Positions 52,018 through 58,983 of a DNA stretch of 64,000 nt are shown here, in pieces (the first letter of the stretch is position 1; each line of letters opens with the position of its first letter). The notes under the pieces were generated by a model that did no database searches, was not told where the DNA came from, and was given only the letters and a program-made list of their open reading frames with translations. The stretch is from positions 6,558 through 70,557 of IMG/VR virus record IMGVR_UViG_3300025168_011805. The stretch is one strand, 5' to 3'. The position numbers and the translations under genes were made by a program. The DNA comes from a virus.

Positions 52018-53976
52018 ATGTTTGAATTACCGTCTTTATATCAATCTTTTATTCACCTTTCCCGATACTCTCGTTGGCTTCCAGAAGAAGGAAGACGAGA
52101 AACTTGGGAAGAGACAGTAAAAAGATACTTTGATTTTTTTGAAAGTCACCTCAAGGAAAATAATAATTACAAAGTTTCTTCTAAGGAAAGAAAAGAATTA
52201 GAAGAAGCTGTTTTGAATTTGGAAATTATGCCTTCAATGCGAGCATTGATGACGGCAGGCGAAGCATTGAAGCGTGACAATGTAGCTGGATACAATTGTG
52301 CTTATGTTAGTTCAGGTAGAGTTCGATCCTTTGATGAAATTTTATATGTGCTCATGTGTGGCACAGGGGTTGGGTTTAGTGTTGAACGTGATTTCCTAAA
52401 GAAGCTACCAACAATTGCAGAGGAGTTTGAGGACAGTGACACGACCATTGTTGTTCAAGATAGTAAGATGGGTTGGGCGAAAGCATACAAAGAACTCACC
52501 TCGCTTCTTATTGGAGGTCAGGTTCCGAAATGGGACGTATCAAAGGTTCGACCTGCCGGAGAAAGACTCAAGACTTTCGGTGGTAGAGCTTCGGGTCCGC
52601 AACCACTGGACGATTTATTCAAATTCACAGTGGAAACCTATAAGAGAGCTTCTGGAAGAAAACTCACATCCATCGAATGTCACGATATCATCTGCAAGAT
52701 TGCTGAAATTGTCGTGGTGGGGGGAGTACGAAGAAGTGCGCTTATCTCATTGTCTTCACTTACCGATGAGCGGATGCGTGATGCGAAGCACGGACAGTGG
52801 TGGATTTCCGACTCGCAAAGAGCATTATCGAATAACTCGGTAGCATACAAAGAGAAACCAGAAATTGGTACATTCATGGAAGAGTGGGTTTCACTATACA
52901 AGAGTAAGTCTGGTGAGCGTGGTATCTTCAACCGAGACGCTGCAAAGAAACAGACTGATAAATCAAACGAATTCAGAAGTTCATTGGGTGATTCATATAG
53001 ACATAGAGATCTCAATTACGATTTTGGTACAAATCCTTGTAGTGAAATTATTCTTCGTGATAAGCAGTTTTGTAATCTTACGGAAATCGTTGTCAGAGGA
53101 AATGATACGAAGGAATCTCTTGAGAGAAAAGTTAAACTTGCAACTATTCTCGGGACATGGCAGTCCACTCTCACAAACTTCAAATACCTTTCGAGTGACT
53201 GGGAAAAGAACTGTGAAGATGAACGTCTTCTTGGTGTGTCTATGACTGGTATCATGGACTGTAAGCTAACAAATGGAAAGACAAAGGGACTAGATGATCT
53301 ACTAAAAGATCTTAAGACTTGTGCAATTAAACAGAACAAGTCTAGTGCAAAAAGCATTGGTATTAATGAATCAGTTGCAATTACCTGTGTCAAACCATCT
53401 GGAACTGTCTCGCAGCTTGTAGACGCTGCGTCAGGGATCCACGCAAGACACAGTGAGCACTACATCAGAACTGTCAGAGCTGATACCAAAGATTCTCTTT
53501 GTGTCTTTATGCAGAAGGAAGGATTCCCCTGTGAACCTGATGTAATGAAGCCAGATCACACCATGGTGTTTTCTTTCCCAATAAAAACACCAAAGAATGC
53601 AGTTTTTAGAACTGATATGACTGCTATTGAACAACTAGAATTGTGGTTAGAATATCAAAGGAATTGGTGTGAGCATAAGCCTTCCGTTACTGTTTCAGTG
53701 AAAGAAGATGAGTGGTTACAGGTAGGATCTTGGGTATATGACCACTTTGATGAAGTATCTGGGGTGTCTTTCTTACCTTTCTCGGATCATACATATAAGC
53801 AAGCTCCATATCAGGAGTGTTCCGAAGAAGAATATAAGATGCTTTTGAAAAAGATGCCAAATAATGTTGACTGGAGTGAATTGGGAAAATATGAAGAAGA
53901 AGATAATACAGCAGGGAGTCAGTCTTTTGCCTGTTCAGGCAATTCCTGTGAATTAGTAGACTTGACAAACAACTAA
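52018..53976 (+). CDS. nrdJ: Class II (adenosylcobalamin-dependent) ribonucleotide reductase
   Basis: PSMRAL, YNC, GVGF, RRSA, TNPCSEI, VKPSGTVS, C-terminal CSGNSC; no beta subunit adjacent. Confidence 0.92.
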   Translation: MFELPSLYQSFIHLSRYSRWLPEEGRRETWEETVKRYFDFFESHLKENNNYKVSSKERKELEEAVLNLEIMPSMRALMTAGEALKRDNVAGYNCAYVSSGRVRSFDEILYVLMCGTGVGFSVERDFLKKLPTIAEEFEDSDTTIVVQDSKMGWAKAYKELTSLLIGGQVPKWDVSKVRPAGERLKTFGGRASGPQPLDDLFKFTVETYKRASGRKLTSIECHDIICKIAEIVVVGGVRRSALISLSSLTDERMRDAKHGQWWISDSQRALSNNSVAYKEKPEIGTFMEEWVSLYKSKSGERGIFNRDAAKKQTDKSNEFRSSLGDSYRHRDLNYDFGTNPCSEIILRDKQFCNLTEIVVRGNDTKESLERKVKLATILGTWQSTLTNFKYLSSDWEKNCEDERLLGVSMTGIMDCKLTNGKTKGLDDLLKDLKTCAIKQNKSSAKSIGINESVAITCVKPSGTVSQLVDAASGIHARHSEHYIRTVRADTKDSLCVFMQKEGFPCEPDVMKPDHTMVFSFPIKTPKNAVFRTDMTAIEQLELWLEYQRNWCEHKPSVTVSVKEDEWLQVGSWVYDHFDEVSGVSFLPFSDHTYKQAPYQECSEEEYKMLLKKMPNNVDWSELGKYEEEDNTAGSQSFACSGNSCELVDLTNN

Positions 53977-53990
53977 ATTTAAAGTATAAT
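53962..53990 (+). promoter_or_regulatory. Consensus sigma70 promoter TTGACA-17-TATAAT for the small membrane protein and porin
   Basis: Perfect consensus; inverted repeat atccaca-tt-tgtggat just downstream. Confidence 0.9.
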
Positions 53991-54050
53991 AGAACTAATT
54001 AGTGAATCCACATTTGTGGATCATGTACCTCTAACAAAAGGAGAAATGCT

Positions 54051-54251
54051 ATGAGTGCAAACACTAAAGATTGCCCGGTTTCGGGTTGTGGTAATGATGT
54101 AGTAGGTAAGTTTTTTGGAAAATTTGGAGTAACCCGATCAACTCTGGTTAGTCTTGCTCTTGTTCCCTTCGCGTGGGACGGAGTTCTTTGGTTCCGAGAT
54201 GCCATTTCGGCTGTCTGGACCGCAGTCACTGCTTGGAACATTGGCGGTTGA
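54051..54251 (+). CDS. Small membrane protein with CPxxxC
   Basis: AAGGAG RBS; hydrophobic/aromatic C-terminal half. Confidence 0.7.
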   Translation: MSANTKDCPVSGCGNDVVGKFFGKFGVTRSTLVSLALVPFAWDGVLWFRDAISAVWTAVTAWNIGG

Positions 54252-54274
54252 TAAACCATAACAGGAGAATACTT

Positions 54275-55432
54275 ATGAGTATTATTAAAATTGGCGCGAC
54301 ATGTCTCGCCCTATGCACTTGCGGAGTTGCAAGTGCAGATGATTCAGACATGATGGGTGACAACAATGTCACCCCCGAGATGATGCAGCAGCGAATGAAT
54401 CGTATGGTTGATCAAGGTATGATCACACCCGATATGATGCAGCAGCGAATGGATCGTATGGAGATGGGTGAAGCAGTTCGTTCGGATGCTTCCACTCGAA
54501 TTAGTCTTAGTCCTTCGACTGAAGGCTTTTCGTTGGATCTGGGTGGATTTATCCAGACAGGATACAGCTACAATGGCGGTGCAGATCTCGATGCTGAGTA
54601 TGGATTCTCAGTTGATCGTGCTCGTCTAATTCTATCTGGTGACTTTGGTAAGGATGCAAGTTACCTCCTGAGTGGACAGTGGAGTGATGTAACTTCCACG
54701 TTTGATCTTCTCGACGCTCGTGTTGATTTTAGAGCGTTTGGTGTTACCAATGTTCGAGTTGGTCAGTTCGTTCCTGCTTTCTATAGTGGTTTCGTCACTG
54801 ATCCTCGTTCTCTTATCACCAACAACTATAGCGTTTCTGCCCTTACATACGGACAGGGACGAGGTCAGGGTGTAGAACTTTCGGACTTCATTGTATCTGA
54901 TGTTGTTGAACTTTCTGCATTTTACACCAATGGTTTTGGTGACACTAATGGTGTTGACGCAGATAATGATTATGCAGTTGGTGCTCGCGCATCTGTCGGA
55001 CTCGGTGGTGGATTTTCCATCGGTGCTGGTTATGCATACAACAATAATAATGTAACGGATTACAGCAGTTATACTGTTGATCTCGAATACACTAGTGGTA
55101 AGCTCGATTTCAACGCTGCATGGATTGCAAACAACGAAACTGAGGATTGGGATAATTATTCCATCGTTGGTACTCTTGCATATCAGTGTCTGGACAACCT
55201 TCAGGGTTTTGTTCAGTATGAGTATGGTGCTCTTGGTGGTGTCAGCGACAAGCTGAATATTGCAACTATTGGTTGTAACTACACCATCCACGAGAATATC
55301 GTATGGACCAACACTGTTGGATATGCTTTCGAAGGTATTGACTCTGGTTTCAACACAGATAACACAGGTTGGCGTTCCAGTGCCGACGACGGACAGTATG
55401 TCGTTCGTAGTGTTATTCAGGTCAGTTTCTGA
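54275..55432 (+). CDS. Outer-membrane porin (phosphate-porin O/P-like beta-barrel)
   Basis: Signal peptide ending ASA, GF.V.RARL..SG, LLDA, RVGQF, amphipathic strands, C-terminal QVSF beta-signal; AGGAG RBS before ATG 54275. Confidence 0.85.
   Translation: MSIIKIGATCLALCTCGVASADDSDMMGDNNVTPEMMQQRMNRMVDQGMITPDMMQQRMDRMEMGEAVRSDASTRISLSPSTEGFSLDLGGFIQTGYSYNGGADLDAEYGFSVDRARLILSGDFGKDASYLLSGQWSDVTSTFDLLDARVDFRAFGVTNVRVGQFVPAFYSGFVTDPRSLITNNYSVSALTYGQGRGQGVELSDFIVSDVVELSAFYTNGFGDTNGVDADNDYAVGARASVGLGGGFSIGAGYAYNNNNVTDYSSYTVDLEYTSGKLDFNAAWIANNETEDWDNYSIVGTLAYQCLDNLQGFVQYEYGALGGVSDKLNIATIGCNYTIHENIVWTNTVGYAFEGIDSGFNTDNTGWRSSADDGQYVVRSVIQVSF
54369..54461 (+). repeat. Two ~39-nt direct repeats (54-nt period) encoding TP[ED]MMQQRM[ND]RM
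   Basis: tcacccccgagatgatgcagcagcgaatgaatcgtatgg / tcacacccgatatgatgcagcagcgaatggatcgtatgg. Confidence 0.9.
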
Positions 55433-55440
55433 AAAAAAAT

Positions 55441-55458
55441 ATCTTATAAATATAAGAT
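55441..55458 (+). promoter_or_regulatory. Late promoter TATAAATA (55445-55452) inside the palindrome ATCTTATA-AA-TATAAGAT
   Basis: Direct reading. Confidence 0.7.
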
Positions 55459-55459
55459 A

Positions 55460-55545
55460 ACTAAATCGCGGAGTGCAAAAGAGCTGGATCACCCTTTTCC
55501 CGCGAATAAGAGAACCCTTTACCTTTATTGGTGAGGGGTTTTCTC
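55460..55545 (+). ncRNA. Candidate small RNA A: hairpin displaying GCUGGAUCACC in its loop, followed by a second hairpin
   Basis: Stems tcgcgg/ccgcga and aaaag/ctttt; late promoter upstream; no ORF on + strand. Confidence 0.55.
55509..55544 (+). terminator. 15-bp hairpin (putative terminator of RNA A or the porin operon), followed by CATAAATA late promoter
   Basis: agagaaccctttacc-tttatt-ggtgaggggttttct with G-U pairs. Confidence 0.5.
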
Positions 55546-55568
55546 ATAAATAGTACCGGAGACTTATT

Positions 55569-56129
55569 ATGATAATAGCCGGTATTGACTACAGTTTAAA
55601 TGGTCCAGCAATTTGTGTTTTTAATTCAGATGAAGGTTTTACTTTCAATAATTGTTCTTTTTATTATCTGACAGATACAAAGAACCTAGCAAAAACATTT
55701 TTGTCTAGAATTCATGGGAAATTATTTGAGACATACAATCATGATTGTGAAAGGTATGATACCATATCAGAGTGGGCAGTTGAAATGTGTCAGGGGTGTG
55801 AACAAGTTGCTATTGAGGGCTATGCATATGCCGCAAAGGGTAGGGTTTTCAATATAGCAGAGAATACAGGGTTACTTAAGTATAAGTTTTTTCAACAGTC
55901 TGTGCCAATTGATGTGATTGCTCCGTCTGTGGTTAAAAAACTAGCTACCGGAAAGGGAAATGCTGATAAGACAGCGATGCATGACGCTTTTGTCAAGGAA
56001 ACAAAACACAATTTATTCAACCTGATAACTCCAAATAGAAAAGGTATAGGAAACCCTATATCAGACATAGTTGATTCATATTATGTTTGTAAAGGTCTTT
56101 ACTATGACATAATTTCACAGAATTCATAA
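55569..56129 (+). CDS. ruvC: RuvC-like Holliday junction resolvase
   Basis: GIDYS, AIEGY, AENTG, P..VKK.ATGKGNADK, DIVDSY. Confidence 0.88.
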   Translation: MIIAGIDYSLNGPAICVFNSDEGFTFNNCSFYYLTDTKNLAKTFLSRIHGKLFETYNHDCERYDTISEWAVEMCQGCEQVAIEGYAYAAKGRVFNIAENTGLLKYKFFQQSVPIDVIAPSVVKKLATGKGNADKTAMHDAFVKETKHNLFNLITPNRKGIGNPISDIVDSYYVCKGLYYDIISQNS

Positions 56130-56132
56130 ATA
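56125..56132 (+). promoter_or_regulatory. Late promoter variant CATAAATA
   Basis: 7/8 match; upstream of the 56159 ORF. Confidence 0.55.
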
Positions 56133-56158
56133 GTAATGTATCTTTAAGGAGCACAACA

Positions 56159-56509
56159 ATGAGATTAAACGAAGTCAACGATTCAATCACCAGAACTTAT
56201 GCACTTTGCAACGATGAAAAAGTGGGTAAAAAGTACAGAGGTAGATTTGAACGTGAATATGGCGGAACTTTTTTTAATTATAGAGGTAAGTGGATATGGG
56301 ACAAAAGAAGTTTAAACGAAACTGAGCTTTCTTTTATCGAAAAAGAAGGTGATCTGCCACTAATCAATGATTTAGCTAGTTCAGAGAAAACGAAGGAAAA
56401 GCCAGCGAAAAAAAGAAAGAAAAAAAGCACGTTTGGCTTCAAAAAGGACATATATAATAGTGACGTTTCAAAAGCTTTTGAAAATAAAAGCCTAGACGAA
56501 AAGGAGTGA
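56159..56509 (+). CDS. Hypothetical protein
   Basis: AAGGAG RBS; basic patch KKRKKK. Confidence 0.65.
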   Translation: MRLNEVNDSITRTYALCNDEKVGKKYRGRFEREYGGTFFNYRGKWIWDKRSLNETELSFIEKEGDLPLINDLASSEKTKEKPAKKRKKKSTFGFKKDIYNSDVSKAFENKSLDEKE

Positions 56510-56512
56510 ATT

Positions 56513-56644
56513 ATGTCACCAGAGCCATTTAGCGGAATTTTAGGAACTGTGTTTTATAGCGTATTATTATTCGCCGCCGGAGCTTGGATAGGACCTTCTT
56601 TTTGGACATGGGTGAAGGGTTACCTTCCTTGGACTAAACCGTAA
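56513..56644 (+). CDS. 43-aa single-pass membrane peptide (not in the ORF track)
   Basis: AAGGAG RBS; MSPEPFSGILGTVFYSVLLFAAGAWIGPSFWTWVKGYLPWTKP. Confidence 0.75.
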   Translation: MSPEPFSGILGTVFYSVLLFAAGAWIGPSFWTWVKGYLPWTKP

Positions 56645-56653
56645 ACGATAAAT

Positions 56654-56733
56654 CTGGCTTTACTGCCAAGTATCTTTTGCACACAGTCAGGAGGTGATCC
56701 AGCACTTTCCCCTATTTACTCGCATAAAGCCAG
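56654..56733 (+). ncRNA. Candidate structured RNA B with orphan 15-nt 16S-complementary sequence AGGAGGTGATCCAGC
   Basis: Outer stem ctggcttta/taaagccag plus tgc/gca and agta/tact; loop holds the extended SD with no start codon at RBS spacing. Confidence 0.6.
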
Positions 56734-56737
56734 TGTT

Positions 56738-56770
56738 TGGGCCCCGTTTACGGGGCCCATTCTTTTTTTT
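56738..56770 (+). terminator. Strong intrinsic terminator
   Basis: tgggccccg-ttta-cggggccca followed by a T-tract. Confidence 0.92.
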
Positions 56771-56777
56771 ATAAATA
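56770..56777 (+). promoter_or_regulatory. Late promoter TATAAATA
   Basis: Exact consensus upstream of the 727-aa ORF. Confidence 0.75.
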
Positions 56778-56799
56778 GAAGTAGTCTTTGGAGTAAAGA

Positions 56800-58983
56800 A
56801 TGTCTGATTATTCAACAAAAAAACCCATATTTGAAGCAGATTGGTTTGATCCGATGGAATTTTTAGAATTTTTGCAGTTAGACGAAGCGAACCCAATATC
56901 GAAATCATTTGCTGATAAAGAAGCTCTAGATAAAGAAAAAGCAAAAGAAGATGCTAGAGCTGTTGGTGGTGACAAAAAAGACGTTGATAGCGCCAGAAAG
57001 CGTGTAGAGAGAAAAGCATCAGAGCAACAAGAAAAGACAAACCCTTGGAAGGGGGTTATTGTTGTAAAAACTTTGGATGACAACAAAACTAGATTGATTC
57101 CAAAAACTGATTACGAACCAAATAAACATGAACTCCTATATGGACGAGTCCCTGGTCAGAGAAACAAACCAGAAGTAACTCCAAACGCAGCAAGAGAAAT
57201 TTCCAGAAGACCTGATTTCGAAGCAACAAAAACATCCAACAGACTTCTGGGTAATGTAGAGAAAACAGAAGATCCATCAGCTCCCGAAGTCGCCACACAA
57301 GAAGGCGAAGTTGCTGATGACATTATGGATTCTCAGGAACAAAAAAGAATTCCATCAAACGGAAAAGAAATAACATCAGCAGGATCAGTTTATCCTGATT
57401 GGGATCATGAATCAGAAGACATGGCTTCAAGCATAGCGAGCACATTCAACTCTGTGAACGGAGGCAAGATAGGTGATGGGATGTCTCCATCTCTTAAGAA
57501 CAACATGGAAGAGAGCGAAACATTAGAACCATCTGCTATTCGAGTTGTTCAGCAAATACAGGATGATTTAAGAGGAAGTTGGGTGGCTAAGCCAGTCAAC
57601 AAAGAAACAGGATCAATCTCTCCAGAGTGGGCATCATTGGGTGGTGATGATCCTTCATCCAAGTCTCAGATAGTATTCGAGGGTGATTCACAAGAGGAAG
57701 TTGTCCGGGCCTCGGTAAGGATTGGAGAAACTCCAATCTTACTGGAAAAAGAAGGCGAAGCCTTAGCCTTGTTTTCTTCCACTGCATTGAAACTAAAAGA
57801 AAATATCTTATTGAACCCTGCTACCAAAAAACAGACAAAAGCTGTATCAGAAAAAATGAGAGATTATGTTATAAACACTAAGCCTGAAGTGAGATTCAAT
57901 AACCAAATCCAAATTGATAAAAATAGGTTCTCTAAGGAAAATGTAGAGAATTTACACACAGAACTAAAGTCCCATCTCGAAGATATATTTGCAACTAACG
58001 AGGAGTTCAAGAAAGCTTTAGTTTACGAAGAATTAACTGGACAAGACAAATTTGGTTTTGACAATCCTTCTTCGGTTACTCATATATTATCGGCAAATAA
58101 AGATGGAACAAGCGCACATTTATCAAAATTAAACGAAACTTATATTAACAAAATCATCAATGATGTAAAGGTAAACATAAGATTTGGTATTGACGATGAC
58201 ATACGAGAATCTAGAACACCCGGAAGTTTCTGGGCTGCTATGAGTGTATCTGATGATATGAAAGAAGACATATGTCATCACTTTACTGATTTACTGGCAG
58301 AGAGTGACTCAGACACAGAAACTTATTTCAACCAAGCGACATCTGATATCTCTGATGATCCATTCCGAATGTTTGAATTTTTAGGTTTGACCGTAAATGA
58401 AATAAGTTCCAATCAACTTAACTTAGCTAATTATAACACAAATGAGTCTGGTGAGTATACGAAAGTTCAAACTAGAGATAGAGTATTTTATGTTCCTGTA
58501 GAGAAGGACACACAATACTATGAAGCAGAGAATGATGAAATCCCTCAGCTCACTACTAACGAAGAGTATGAGAGAGATTACAGAAAAGAATATGATAGAC
58601 ATCATAGCAGCAAAAAAGCAATTCAAGCTAGAGGCAAACGAACAACAAATAGAAGAAGAGCTATTCGTAAGGGTGTAGTGAGTAAAGGTGATGGGGTTGA
58701 TATTGATCACAAGGATGGAAATCCCATGAACAATTCATCTACCAACTTAAGAAAAAGAAGTGCCGCATCAAACAGATCTGACAACAAACATAAACCAGGC
58801 GAAACTCAAGATCATAGCAAAAGACTCAAAGAAGAGGGTGGTGCCGGAGACATCGGAACCTACGATCTTCTAAAAAAATACATAGAAGACACTCCTTTTA
58901 TGGAAGTTGACGCGGAATTGAATAAACTTTTTAAAAAAAATTACGATAGAGTAAAATCTATAAAAAAAGAATCTCCGAAGTGA
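56800..58983 (+). CDS. Large late protein with C-terminal HNH domain (possible internal virion protein)
   Basis: RDYRKEY..H..R..R..R...GDG.DIDHKDGNPMNN...NL......NR HNH motif; late promoter; acidic LxE sites. Confidence 0.75.
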   Translation: MSDYSTKKPIFEADWFDPMEFLEFLQLDEANPISKSFADKEALDKEKAKEDARAVGGDKKDVDSARKRVERKASEQQEKTNPWKGVIVVKTLDDNKTRLIPKTDYEPNKHELLYGRVPGQRNKPEVTPNAAREISRRPDFEATKTSNRLLGNVEKTEDPSAPEVATQEGEVADDIMDSQEQKRIPSNGKEITSAGSVYPDWDHESEDMASSIASTFNSVNGGKIGDGMSPSLKNNMEESETLEPSAIRVVQQIQDDLRGSWVAKPVNKETGSISPEWASLGGDDPSSKSQIVFEGDSQEEVVRASVRIGETPILLEKEGEALALFSSTALKLKENILLNPATKKQTKAVSEKMRDYVINTKPEVRFNNQIQIDKNRFSKENVENLHTELKSHLEDIFATNEEFKKALVYEELTGQDKFGFDNPSSVTHILSANKDGTSAHLSKLNETYINKIINDVKVNIRFGIDDDIRESRTPGSFWAAMSVSDDMKEDICHHFTDLLAESDSDTETYFNQATSDISDDPFRMFEFLGLTVNEISSNQLNLANYNTNESGEYTKVQTRDRVFYVPVEKDTQYYEAENDEIPQLTTNEEYERDYRKEYDRHHSSKKAIQARGKRTTNRRRAIRKGVVSKGDGVDIDHKDGNPMNNSSTNLRKRSAASNRSDNKHKPGETQDHSKRLKEEGGAGDIGTYDLLKKYIEDTPFMEVDAELNKLFKKNYDRVKSIKKESPK

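What the first reader, a model, noticed from the sequence alone, without database searches (positions are those of the whole stretch)
55441..56777. Candidate RNA-RNA system: an orphan super-Shine-Dalgarno RNA and a 16S-mimic partner RNA with two-site, permuted complementarity
Seen: element A (55466-55505), behind a late promoter, reads GTGCAAAAGA|GCTGGATCACC (55473-55493), with GCTGGATCACC in a hairpin loop. Element B (56654-56733) is a long stem whose loop begins TCTTTTGCAC (56673-56682) and contains GGTGATCCAGC (56693-56703). Each block of A is the exact reverse complement of a block of B, but the blocks are in the same 5'-3' order. Pairing therefore cannot form one simple duplex; it needs a pseudoknot-like geometry, or A would splint the ends of a 31-nt piece of B. 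B can also fold an inner hairpin with loop ATCCAG, complementary to CTGGAT in A's loop (a kissing start). Known: GCUGGAUCACCUCCU is the usual bacterial 16S 3' end. Inference: B may be a 30S-binding decoy or effector RNA and A its late-expressed antidote or regulator, like an RNA-only toxin/antitoxin pair. Alternatively, A may control the 43-aa peptide mRNA whose 3' UTR is B. I do not know of a described phage system with this layout.
Basis: partly seen in the sequence, partly recalled or inferred. Interest (0 to 1): 0.9.

Follow-up and report, generated by a model that had tools for sequence, protein, structure and literature searches.

The report
Phage RNA pair mimicking ribosome docking
An uncultured marine T4-like phage keeps two non-coding mRNA tails, one showing a perfect ribosome-docking sequence with no gene behind it and the other a look-alike of the ribosomal RNA tail that base-pairs with it, which points to an undescribed RNA-against-RNA control of ribosome binding.

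Summary
In detail: both complementary blocks are exact, at the stated coordinates. The title swaps the labels. B (56654-56733) holds the super-Shine-Dalgarno AGGAGGTGATCCAGC. A (55466-55505) resembles the 16S tail.

A lies in the 3' UTR of a porin-like gene. B lies in the 3' UTR of a conserved 43-aa membrane-peptide gene. I found both elements together in 7 lineages (8 records), on the same or opposite DNA strands.

- Complementarity between the two RNAs is always kept, over 11-28 contiguous pairs.
- Several positions changed on both sides and still pair. Inside the helices there are 13 G.U pairs against 3 mismatches.
- Cognate pairs outrank all but 8 of 5040 re-pairings.
- B always keeps -26 to -32 kcal/mol pairing to a real 16S tail. 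Covariation supports its closing stem.

The permuted second block is specific to the window lineage. Elsewhere the duplex is colinear.

In sister lineages the same super-SD is the working RBS of the next gene, so B is probably a former RBS put to a new use.

Best reading: B docks 30S subunits and A masks that site. Function is untested, and no A transcript was seen.

I found no published description. This scan noted the same kind of pair on other DNA (e1-5836493).

The parts
53962..53990 (+). Perfect sigma-70-type promoter (TTGACA, 17 nt, TATAAT) in front of the 66-aa ORF and porin-like operon whose 3' UTR is element A
   Evidence: 12 of 12 consensus positions; sequence read
54275..55432 (+). 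Porin-like outer-membrane beta-barrel gene; its stop codon is followed by element A
   Evidence: Porin_O_P 22.6 bits against a cutoff of 20.9; Porin_4 23.4 bits against a cutoff of 27, i.e. below it; start ATG and RBS read; 99 relatives confirmed in viral contigs, 80 kept
55440..55459 (+).
   Evidence: (I19); similar hairpins just after the stop codon occur in other lineages
55466..55505 (+). Element A: 6-bp stem (UCGCGG/CCGCGA) with a 28-nt loop that shows GTGCAAAAGA (55473-55482) and the 16S-tail-like GCTGGATCACC (55483-55493)
   Evidence: homologues in porin 3' UTRs in 15 of 80 porin loci
55509..55544 (+). Intrinsic-terminator-like hairpin (15-bp stem, then UUUUCU) that ends the porin/A transcript
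   Evidence: not called by the simple scan
56513..56644 (+). 43-aa single-helix membrane peptide gene, widely conserved in marine T4-like phage contigs; B is its 3' UTR
   Evidence: 236 relatives confirmed by tblastn in viral contigs; covered by contigs of 4 RNA libraries
56654..56733 (+). Element B: structured RNA closed by stem P1 (56654-56662 with 56725-56733). It shows TCTTTTGCAC (56673-56682) and the orphan super-SD AGGAGGTGATCCAGC (56689-56703; the A-binding block is 56693-56703)
   Evidence: a covariance model built from relatives finds exactly 56654-56733 (E 0.0036); P1 has changes on both sides in 10 of 11 pairs
56738..56769 (+). Strong intrinsic terminator (9-bp stem with 8 GC pairs, then a T run) that ends the peptide/B transcript
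56770..56777 (+). TATAAATA late-promoter motif for the next gene. Most of the B loci printed show TATAAATA or TATACATA right after the terminator

Best explanation
A and B are a conserved pair of non-coding RNA elements that act on each other in trans. They occur in a clade of uncultured marine T4-like phages.

B is the folded 3' UTR of a small membrane-peptide mRNA. It displays an orphan, extended Shine-Dalgarno sequence of 12-16 nt complementary to the free 3' tail of 16S rRNA. This is probably the former ribosome-binding site of the next gene, cut off from that gene by an inserted terminator and late promoter. B can dock a 30S subunit without starting a protein.

A is the 3' UTR of the early porin-like mRNA. 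In this window it may also be made as a separate ~85-nt RNA. It displays a look-alike of the 16S tail that pairs with the same nucleotides of B. A therefore competes with the ribosome for B, masking the docking site and probably creating a double-stranded RNase target. This ties the fate of the peptide/B transcript to the level of the porin/A transcript.

Shown here: the anatomy, conservation, co-variation, cognate specificity and 16S complementarity, and the presence of the peptide+B stretch in RNA libraries.

Inferred: transcription of A, 30S binding, competition, and any effect on mRNA stability, ribosomes or timing.
For: 1. A and B occur in the same record in 7 lineages (8 records): the window, G002/G003, L281, G011, G017, G014 and G015. 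A always lies between the porin stop codon and a terminator. B always lies between the peptide stop codon and a terminator.
2. The two genes are on the same DNA strand in the window and on opposite strands in G002, G011 and L281. The two RNAs stay complementary in every case.
3. Duplex energies between the porin 3' UTR and the peptide 3' UTR beat nearly all of 300 shuffles. The counts of shuffles at least as good are 9, 0, 0, 0, 0, 1 and 0.
4. Contiguous cognate pairing runs are 11, 18, 17, 27, 28, 12 and 14 pairs (mean 18.1). Non-cognate pairings average 13.1. Only 8 of 5040 re-pairings reach the cognate total.
5. Both sides changed and pairing was kept at columns -5, -4, -3 and +8. Inside the helices there are 13 G.U pairs against 3 mismatches.
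6. In G011 and G017 the complementarity runs 12 nt beyond anything 16S-like, so A matches B itself and not merely the ribosome.
7. Pairing of B with a real 16S tail (taken from L344; Rfam SSU match) is -26.1 to -32.5 kcal/mol in all 7 lineages, although the flanks differ.
8. B is a structured element. P1 has changes on both sides in 10 of 11 pairs. 87.9% of cells are paired, against at most 57.3% when the partners are slid, and 0 of 500 shuffles reach the covariation score.
9. In sister lineages the same super-SD stands 1-13 nt before the ATG of the next gene, which is cytidylyltransferase-like: L523, L549, L542, L531/L538, and the L006 family.
10. Contigs from RNA libraries X15, X17 and X18 (three studies) cover 56472-56733, 56485-56729 and 56472-56712 with no differences.
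11. An RNA with a 17-nt SD binds 30S subunits strongly and is poorly translated (rreB, PMC5711450, abstract read).
Against: - No RNA contig covers A. A's own promoter is not supported statistically.
- The RNA-library contigs have depth 2-3 and could come from contaminating DNA. They cannot show transcript ends.
- B-like orphan SD elements exist without an A-like partner. G023 (157 kb, 87% complete) has none within 3 mismatches of 15 outside B itself. Three records with both genes (L436/L524, L444/L501, L452/L489) show no significant pairing: 232, 47 and 297 of 300 shuffles do as well. B must therefore have a role that does not need A.
- In the window the colinear run is only 11 pairs (16 with one mismatch). 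A of the window matches B of G011 better, with 15 pairs.
- In a fold of the putative 299-nt transcript, B's sites are mostly paired with the end of the peptide ORF. Opening costs are 7-13 kcal/mol, though such long folds are unreliable.
- 30S binding, A-B binding and any phenotype are untested. The host is unknown.
- Co-variation could in part reflect copying between the two DNA sites.
Confidence: 0.45

Rival explanations
1. Control like a type I toxin-antitoxin system. The 43-aa membrane peptide is harmful or controls timing (lysis, exclusion). A is an antisense RNA that pairs with the 3' UTR of the peptide mRNA to trigger its decay or refold it. The resemblance to 16S is inherited from the former RBS and is irrelevant.
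For: The peptide is small, has one hydrophobic helix and is widely conserved. Its mRNA has a long structured 3' UTR that the A RNA can pair with. From my own knowledge, Bacillus type I systems (bsrG/SR4, txpA/RatA) act through pairing at the 3' end, and Fst/par uses separate pairing sites.
Against: A is not adjacent to or overlapping the peptide gene. It lies 1.2 kb away in the window and about 5-9 kb away in G002 and G011, inside another gene's 3' UTR.

A does not pair consistently with the peptide's RBS. The counts of shuffles at least as good are 12, 79, 34, 56 and 0 of 300.

The peptide gene occurs in many lineages with no B and no A, which would be odd for a toxin that needs an antidote.

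This reading does not explain why B keeps 12-16 nt of 16S complementarity in every lineage.
Confidence: 0.2
2. Two independent cis elements. B is a ribosome-docking stabiliser or leftover RBS acting only on its own mRNA. A is an anti-SD-like 3' UTR motif acting on its own or other mRNAs, as in icaR. The A-B complementarity is a by-product of both matching the ribosome's SD/anti-SD code.
For: B-like orphans exist without A. In G014 and G015 the A-B match lies entirely inside the 16S-like core, and B of G014 matches 16S over more positions (16) than it matches A (12). Many other porin 3' UTRs carry a hairpin at the stop codon plus CACUUC, with no partner found. Orphan super-SD elements were noted in unrelated phages by earlier notes of this scan (e1-5732549, e1-5732558, e1-5353884; not tested here).
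Against: In G011 and G017 complementarity extends 12 nt beyond the 16S-like part. In G002 and L281 it extends 3-5 nt on the other side, where A agrees with B and not with the 16S tail of L344. Cognate pairing exceeds non-cognate pairing (8 of 5040). The anti-SD core CCUCC is degraded in A of the window (CCCUUUU) and of G002 (CUUUC), while the part that pairs with B is kept. The porin RBS is an ordinary AGGAG, not an extended SD.
Confidence: 0.15
3. A DNA-level repeat with no RNA function. A is a partial, rearranged copy of the B region, spread by recombination or gene conversion and kept similar by copying.
For: A of G011 is a near-copy of the reverse complement of B over 27 nt. The window's A aligns better to a tandem-doubled G011 A (score 33 against 26), which fits a duplication/deletion history through the GAGGG(G)ACT repeat. 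Concerted evolution would mimic co-variation.
Against: Differences between the copies are almost all of the kind that keeps RNA pairing: 13 G.U against 3 mismatches. The orientation relative to the transcripts is constant while the DNA orientation varies. Both copies lie in predicted loops or single strands between a stop codon and a terminator. The A architecture has diversified into three types while keeping the pairing nucleotides.
Confidence: 0.1

Closest known systems
rreB / rreR small mRNAs of alpha-proteobacteria (Hahn et al. 2016/17, PMC5711450; abstract read)
   Same: An RNA with an unusually long SD (17 nt there, 12-16 nt here) complementary to the 16S 3' end. In rreB the paper shows strong 30S binding and shows that the long SD impedes translation.
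   Different: rreB has a start codon and a 14-aa ORF behind the SD, is a host gene, and has no antisense partner. B has no start codon, lies in a 3' UTR of a phage mRNA, and has a conserved complementary RNA. I did not test sequence homology.
STAB-SD of the Bacillus thuringiensis cryIIIA 5' UTR (recalled from my own knowledge; the term appears in the papers listed, which I did not read)
   Same: An SD-like sequence not used for initiation, thought to bind a 30S subunit and so change the fate of the mRNA.
   Different: STAB-SD lies in a 5' UTR and blocks 5'-3' decay of the downstream message. B lies at the 3' end, after the ORF, and has a competitor RNA.
icaR mRNA of Staphylococcus aureus: a 3' UTR anti-SD motif pairs with an SD (PMC3868564; title and start of abstract seen)
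   Same: An anti-SD-like motif in a 3' UTR that pairs with an SD sequence. This is the closest analogue for A.
   Different: icaR acts in cis on the working RBS of its own mRNA. A pairs in trans with an orphan SD in the 3' UTR of another mRNA. The porin gene's own RBS is ordinary.
3' UTR-derived base-pairing small RNAs of enterobacteria (CpxQ, SroC, DapZ, MicL; recalled)
   Same: The regulator shares the 3' end and terminator of an mRNA and pairs with a different transcript.
   Different: Those RNAs target 5' regions or other sRNAs with Hfq. Here the target is a 3' UTR ribosome-docking site, and no chaperone or processing is known.
Type I toxin-antitoxin systems with 3'-end or multi-site pairing (bsrG/SR4, txpA/RatA, Fst/par; recalled)
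   Same: A small hydrophobic peptide whose mRNA is targeted by an antisense RNA away from the start codon. Loop-loop contacts are possible.
   Different: The antitoxin genes overlap or adjoin the toxin gene. Here A lies 1.2 to about 9 kb away in another gene's 3' UTR. Toxicity is unknown, and the peptide often occurs without A or B.

Membership tests
Any Rfam family | Match to a curated covariance model at or near its gathering score | tested here: not met
   5 matches at E up to 10 in 54000-58000. All score 13-19 bits against gathering scores of 50-101, and none is on A or the core of B.
tRNA / tmRNA | ARAGORN-detectable cloverleaf or tmRNA | tested here: not met
   0 genes in the 64-kb window
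Type I toxin-antitoxin | Toxin is a small hydrophobic peptide (under about 60 aa) | tested here: met
   43 aa with one hydrophobic stretch. Toxicity itself was not tested.
Type I toxin-antitoxin | Antitoxin RNA gene overlaps or adjoins the toxin gene | tested here: not met
   A is 1.0 kb upstream of the peptide gene in the window, with two genes between. It is about 5.6-9 kb away, on the other strand, in G002 and G011.
Type I toxin-antitoxin | Antitoxin pairs with the toxin mRNA | tested here: met
   Complementarity to the 3' UTR in 7 lineages. Pairing with the RBS is not consistent.
Type I toxin-antitoxin | The peptide kills or arrests cells when the RNA is absent | not testable with these tools
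   Needs expression experiments.
STAB-SD-type ribosome-docking stabiliser | SD-like sequence complementary to the 16S 3' end, with no start codon at working distance | tested here: met
   15 of 15 nt. -31.7 kcal/mol with a real 16S tail. No AUG/GUG/UUG 5-13 nt downstream (read).
STAB-SD-type ribosome-docking stabiliser | Located in the 5' UTR, upstream of the message it protects | tested here: not met
   B lies after the ORF, 45 nt past the stop codon and 35 nt before the terminator.
rreB/rreR small mRNA | Extended SD of at least 16 nt followed by a small ORF with a start codon | tested here: not met
   The SD is 15 nt in the window and 12-16 nt in relatives. No start codon follows in any of the 15 B sequences printed.
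icaR-type 3' UTR anti-SD | A 3' UTR motif pairs with the SD of its own mRNA in cis | tested here: not met
   The porin RBS is ACAGGAGAA, with no extended match to the A loop. The only exact partner in the 70.5-kb record is B.
3' UTR-derived trans-acting sRNA | Lies between the stop codon and the mRNA's own terminator, and has a conserved seed complementary to another transcript | tested here: met
3' UTR-derived trans-acting sRNA | Accumulates as a discrete small RNA (own promoter or processing) | tested here: inconclusive
   No RNA contig lies on A (contigs cannot show small RNAs). The TATAAATA before A occurs at chance frequency.

The most novel reading that the evidence does not exclude
An all-RNA, three-party ribosome switch. 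The phage RNA B captures host 30S subunits through a super-Shine-Dalgarno that never starts a protein, acting as a ribosome decoy or holding site. A mimic of the 16S tail, carried on an early mRNA, titrates B. The balance of two phage transcripts would then set how many small subunits are held or released as infection proceeds. In the window lineage, the permuted two-site match would let A bridge or splint B molecules into higher-order complexes.
Probability: 0.15. Interest if true: 0.9.

Novelty: new variant of a known kind. Interest (0 to 1): 0.65.

Why it matters
Antisense RNAs, 3' UTR-derived regulators and orphan ribosome-docking sequences are each known. I found no description of a conserved pair in which one phage RNA copies the 16S tail and the other copies its mRNA partner.

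If B really holds 30S subunits and A releases or blocks them, this would be a protein-free way for a virus to tune ribosome use. It would also be a natural example of an anti-SD mimic.

The system also shows a ribosome-binding site being cut off from its gene and kept for another use. The clade has no cultured member: searches found no match among 50,697 isolate phage records. The elements are nevertheless short enough for direct in-vitro tests.

Tried and rejected
- **Known RNA families and tRNAs:** nothing found.
- **Isolate phages:** no DNA match to 55300-56900. No tblastn match for the porin or the peptide.
- **Pattern scans are mostly noise.** Of 53 stretches with the A pattern, 2 are true A elements.
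- **A as a blocker of the peptide's own RBS:** not consistent across lineages. The window alone shows CACCCUUUUC against GAAAAGGAGUG, with 12 of 300 shuffles as good.
- **CACUUC-type porin 3' UTRs as degenerate A elements:** no significant pairing with their B-like partners (three records).
- **A partner for the working-RBS form:** none seen in five fragmentary records that are 3-21% complete. This shows nothing either way.
- **A consensus fold of B from a plain MAFFT alignment failed** (3 pairs) because the 3' arms were misaligned. I replaced it with a covariance-model alignment. That alignment leans towards the model's structure. The inner helix P3 has no change on both sides and remains unproven.
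- **Accessibility in a 299-nt putative transcript** predicts that B's sites are largely paired with the end of the ORF. I give this little weight: the MFE frequency is 0.0001, and translation would open that region.
- **RNA libraries:**
  - No contig lies on A (55382-55609).
  - No joints were found, so nothing supports a circular or spliced form.
  - X15 and X18 both start at 56472. This is only a weak hint of a 5' end.
- **Sequencing-run shares below 0.2** are not used for habitat.
- **Peptide function:** the Atlas gave only 'hypothetical protein'.
- **Wider record searches:** The genome search could not reach three metagenome records. It does not draw relatives for a virus record.
- **Supplementary files of papers** were not opened and do not bear on any claim here.
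Full report
**1. The observation**

Element A is a hairpin at 55466-55505. Its 28-nt loop holds GTGCAAAAGA (55473-55482) directly followed by GCTGGATCACC (55483-55493). Element B (56654-56733) is closed by a 9-bp stem and holds TCTTTTGCAC (56673-56682) and GGTGATCCAGC (56693-56703).

The repeat finder lists both inverted pairs. It also shows that the second pair extends to 16 nt with one mismatch.

The full 15-mer AGGAGGTGATCCAGC (56689-56703) is the exact complement of the bacterial 16S 3' tail. I confirmed this against a real 16S gene fetched by chance (L344; Rfam SSU match; tail used). The 15-mer occurs once in the window against 0.05 expected. Within the 70.5-kb record, GGTGATCCAG occurs exactly only at A and B.

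So on the + strand B is the super-Shine-Dalgarno and A is the 16S-tail look-alike. The finding's title has them the wrong way round. No start codon follows the SD in B (read). Rfam and ARAGORN find nothing.

**2. Context**

All genes here are on the + strand. The order is as follows:
- a perfect sigma-70-type promoter (53962-53990);
- a 66-aa membrane ORF;
- a porin-like beta-barrel gene (54275-55432);
- an AU-rich hairpin just after the stop codon, then A, then a terminator hairpin;
- a RuvC-like gene and a 116-aa gene;
- a 43-aa membrane-peptide gene (56513-56644);
- B, then a strong terminator (56738-56759 plus T run);
- TATAAATA and the next gene.

The phage is an uncultured marine T4-like virus. 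Its DNA polymerase is at most 54% identical to those of cyanomyophages. The porin and the peptide have no match in 50,697 isolate phage records.

The TATAAATA before A is exact. However, it lies inside the hairpin, occurs at chance frequency in the window (5 against 4.64), and I saw it before A only in the near-identical relative L387. A is therefore first of all the 3' UTR of the porin mRNA. A separate late RNA is possible but not shown.

**3. Relatives of A**

RuvC and porin relatives gave A homologues after the porin stop codon in L001/L420 and L003/L387. A porin alignment gave 80 loci. Of these, 15 carry a 16S-tail-like motif in the 3' UTR (a 16th flag, L414, lies in a coding region).

The motif-bearing 3' UTRs fall into three architectures:
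- a long hairpin with a large loop holding AAGAG...CUG(C)UGGAUCAC (window, L420, L425, L281);
- a small hairpin GAGGG-ACUGGAUCA-CCCUC followed by UAUCCGUGUGC (L426, L427, L429-432);
- a hairpin that includes the stop codon and GGAUCA, followed by single-stranded CCUCCU (L428, L433, L438-440, L458).

The other porin 3' UTRs have a hairpin at the stop codon plus ACACUUC, or are followed by a small Cys-rich ORF.

**4. Relatives of B**

B homologues always follow the conserved 41-48-aa peptide (alignments A1 and A3). They precede a terminator and TATAAATA or TATACATA.

A covariance model built from three relatives finds the window's B at exactly 56654-56733. On the resulting 11-sequence alignment:
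- the closing stem P1 has changes on both sides in 10 of 11 pairs;
- 87.9% of cells pair, against at most 57.3% when partners are slid;
- 0 of 500 shuffles reach the covariation score.

This alignment was fitted to the model, and the inner helix P3 does not covary.

A wider peptide search (236 confirmed loci, 80 kept, 56 distinct 3' regions) shows where the SD came from. In L523, L549, L542 and L531/L538, and in the L006 family, the same extended SD stands just before the ATG of the next gene. That gene is weakly cytidylyltransferase-like. In the B lineages a terminator, a late promoter and a new RBS separate the SD from that gene.

The orphan SD therefore looks like a former RBS. Yet it stays at 12-16 nt of perfect or wobble complementarity to 16S in every lineage, at -26 to -32.5 kcal/mol. 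That argues that it is still used.

**5. A and B together**

Both elements lie in the same record in 7 lineages (8 records): the window, G002/G003, L281, G011, G017, G014 and G015.

Porin and peptide genes are on the same strand in the window and on opposite strands in G002, G011 and L281. Each RNA, read in the sense of its own gene, stays complementary to the other. The numbers are these:
- Duplex energies beat nearly all shuffles.
- Contiguous cognate runs are 11, 18, 17, 27, 28, 12 and 14 pairs. The non-cognate mean is 13.1, and only 8 of 5040 re-pairings reach the cognate sum.
- G002/L281 and G011/G017 are related pairs of lineages, so the number of independent lineages is smaller than 7.
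- Pairs changed on both sides and were kept at four columns next to the invariant core.
- Inside the helices the departures from Watson-Crick pairing are 13 G.U against 3 mismatches. This is what selection on RNA pairing predicts and what mere DNA copying does not.
- In G011 and G017 the match runs 12 nt beyond anything 16S-like (UAUCCGUGUGC with GCACACGGAUA). A is therefore matched to B itself.

**6. The permuted second block**

In G011 and G017 the GUGUGC block lies 3' of CUGGAUCACC and pairs colinearly with B. In the window it lies 5' of that block.

The window's A aligns better to a tandem-doubled G011 A than to the linear one (33 against 26). G011's A contains a direct repeat GAGGG(G)ACU at the two ends of the unit. 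I infer that the window-type A arose by duplication and truncation, that is, by circular permutation.

In G002 and L281 only AAGAG/CUCUU remains of the second site, and it does not covary. In B of these lineages, CUC is part of a small hairpin. The two-site layout is thus real in the window (chance is about 1e-4 by my own arithmetic) but specific to this lineage.

On geometry, which is my inference: with A continuous across both helices, B's 10-nt linker would have to span about 21 stacked pairs. Full simultaneous pairing of one A with one B would be strained. Partial pairing, alternative pairing, or bridging of two B molecules is more likely.

**7. Expression**

Contigs of three RNA libraries from three studies cover 56472-56733, 56485-56729 and 56472-56712 without differences. 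A fourth library covers the peptide ORF.

Depth is 2-3. DNA carry-over cannot be excluded, and contigs cannot show ends or small RNAs. Nothing lies on A, and no joints were seen.

**8. What argues against the model**

- B-like orphan SD elements occur without A. G023 (87% complete) has no A-like sequence. Three records with both genes show no pairing.
- Two records where the SD is a working RBS have no A in the porin 3' UTR.
- B therefore has a role of its own, and A is an added partner in part of the clade.
- A does not consistently match the peptide RBS.

**9. Reading**

The best-supported model has two parts. B docks 30S subunits, by analogy with rreB, whose 17-nt SD binds 30S and impedes translation (PMC5711450, abstract). 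A, a 16S-tail mimic on the early porin transcript, competes for the same nucleotides and may create an RNase III substrate.

The rivals, each given with evidence for and against in its own section, are:
- control of the peptide like a type I toxin-antitoxin system;
- two independent cis elements;
- a functionless DNA repeat.

**10. Novelty**

Five literature searches found no such pair. This scan's earlier notes describe the same kind of pair in another marine T4-like genome (e1-5836493). They also describe orphan super-SD elements in other phages. I used those notes as leads only.

Noticed in passing
L523, L549, L542, L531/L538; L006, L054, L087, L092, L095: In sister lineages the same 13-15-nt super-SD (GGAGGTGATCCAGC) is the working ribosome-binding site of the cytidylyltransferase-like gene that directly follows the peptide gene. 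This is an unusually long SD for a real gene.
   Followed up: partly
L009, L012, L013, L017, L019, L020, L026, L028, L042, L051, L070, L072, L076, L090, L093, L121, L122: Many high-GC viral contigs share AGGAGGTGATCCAGCATCT followed by a GC-rich hairpin, although the flanks differ. It may be coding (..GGDPAS..) or another orphan super-SD family. No Rfam match at the gathering threshold in L009.
   Followed up: partly
L286, L296, L312, L313, L322, L324, L326, L328-L330, L345, L351, L368, L374: A conserved family in metagenome contigs (their habitat was not checked): CACGGAGAGGAGGTGATCCAGATAGACGCATCGAGTAGTAGTCGCGGGTATCTTCTGGGAGAGGTGGCTCTGACCTAGG. This is a super-SD inside what looks like a structured element. 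No Rfam match at the gathering threshold in L286 or L312.
   Followed up: partly
L436, L437, L444, L446, L447, L454, L460 and others: Other porin 3' UTRs share a different layout: a small hairpin right after the stop codon, a conserved (G)ACACUUC(G)C stretch, then the terminator. No partner was found for it.
   Followed up: partly
L491-L496, L502-L504, L513-L515, L522, L530, L551, L553: Another conserved structured element after the peptide gene, in a further lineage: GATCCGTATTTCTACGGAGGTCGCTCTT..AAGAGTGCAATATAAAGAAGTACGGATC. It carries a shorter SD-like GGAGGT, followed by a terminator and TATACATA.
   Followed up: no
window 56451-56472: Contigs of two RNA libraries from different studies both begin at 56472, 13 nt after TATATAATA (56451-56459), inside the end of the 116-aa gene. 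This may be a promoter for a short peptide+B transcript.
   Followed up: partly
window 53962-54251: A perfect sigma-70 consensus promoter (12 of 12) precedes a 66-aa Cys-containing membrane ORF and the porin-like gene. In other lineages a similar small Cys-rich ORF follows the porin gene instead.
   Followed up: partly
L089 4678-4830: Three tandem 51-nt repeats, each containing AGGAGGTGATCCAGC, inside what looks like a repetitive coding region (..GGDPATWGPPQTNNQN..).
   Followed up: no
L217/L388: The closest non-identical porin relative (78% identity) has no A. Its stop codon is followed directly by a terminator and a different downstream gene. A can therefore be lost, or was gained after this split.
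   Followed up: no
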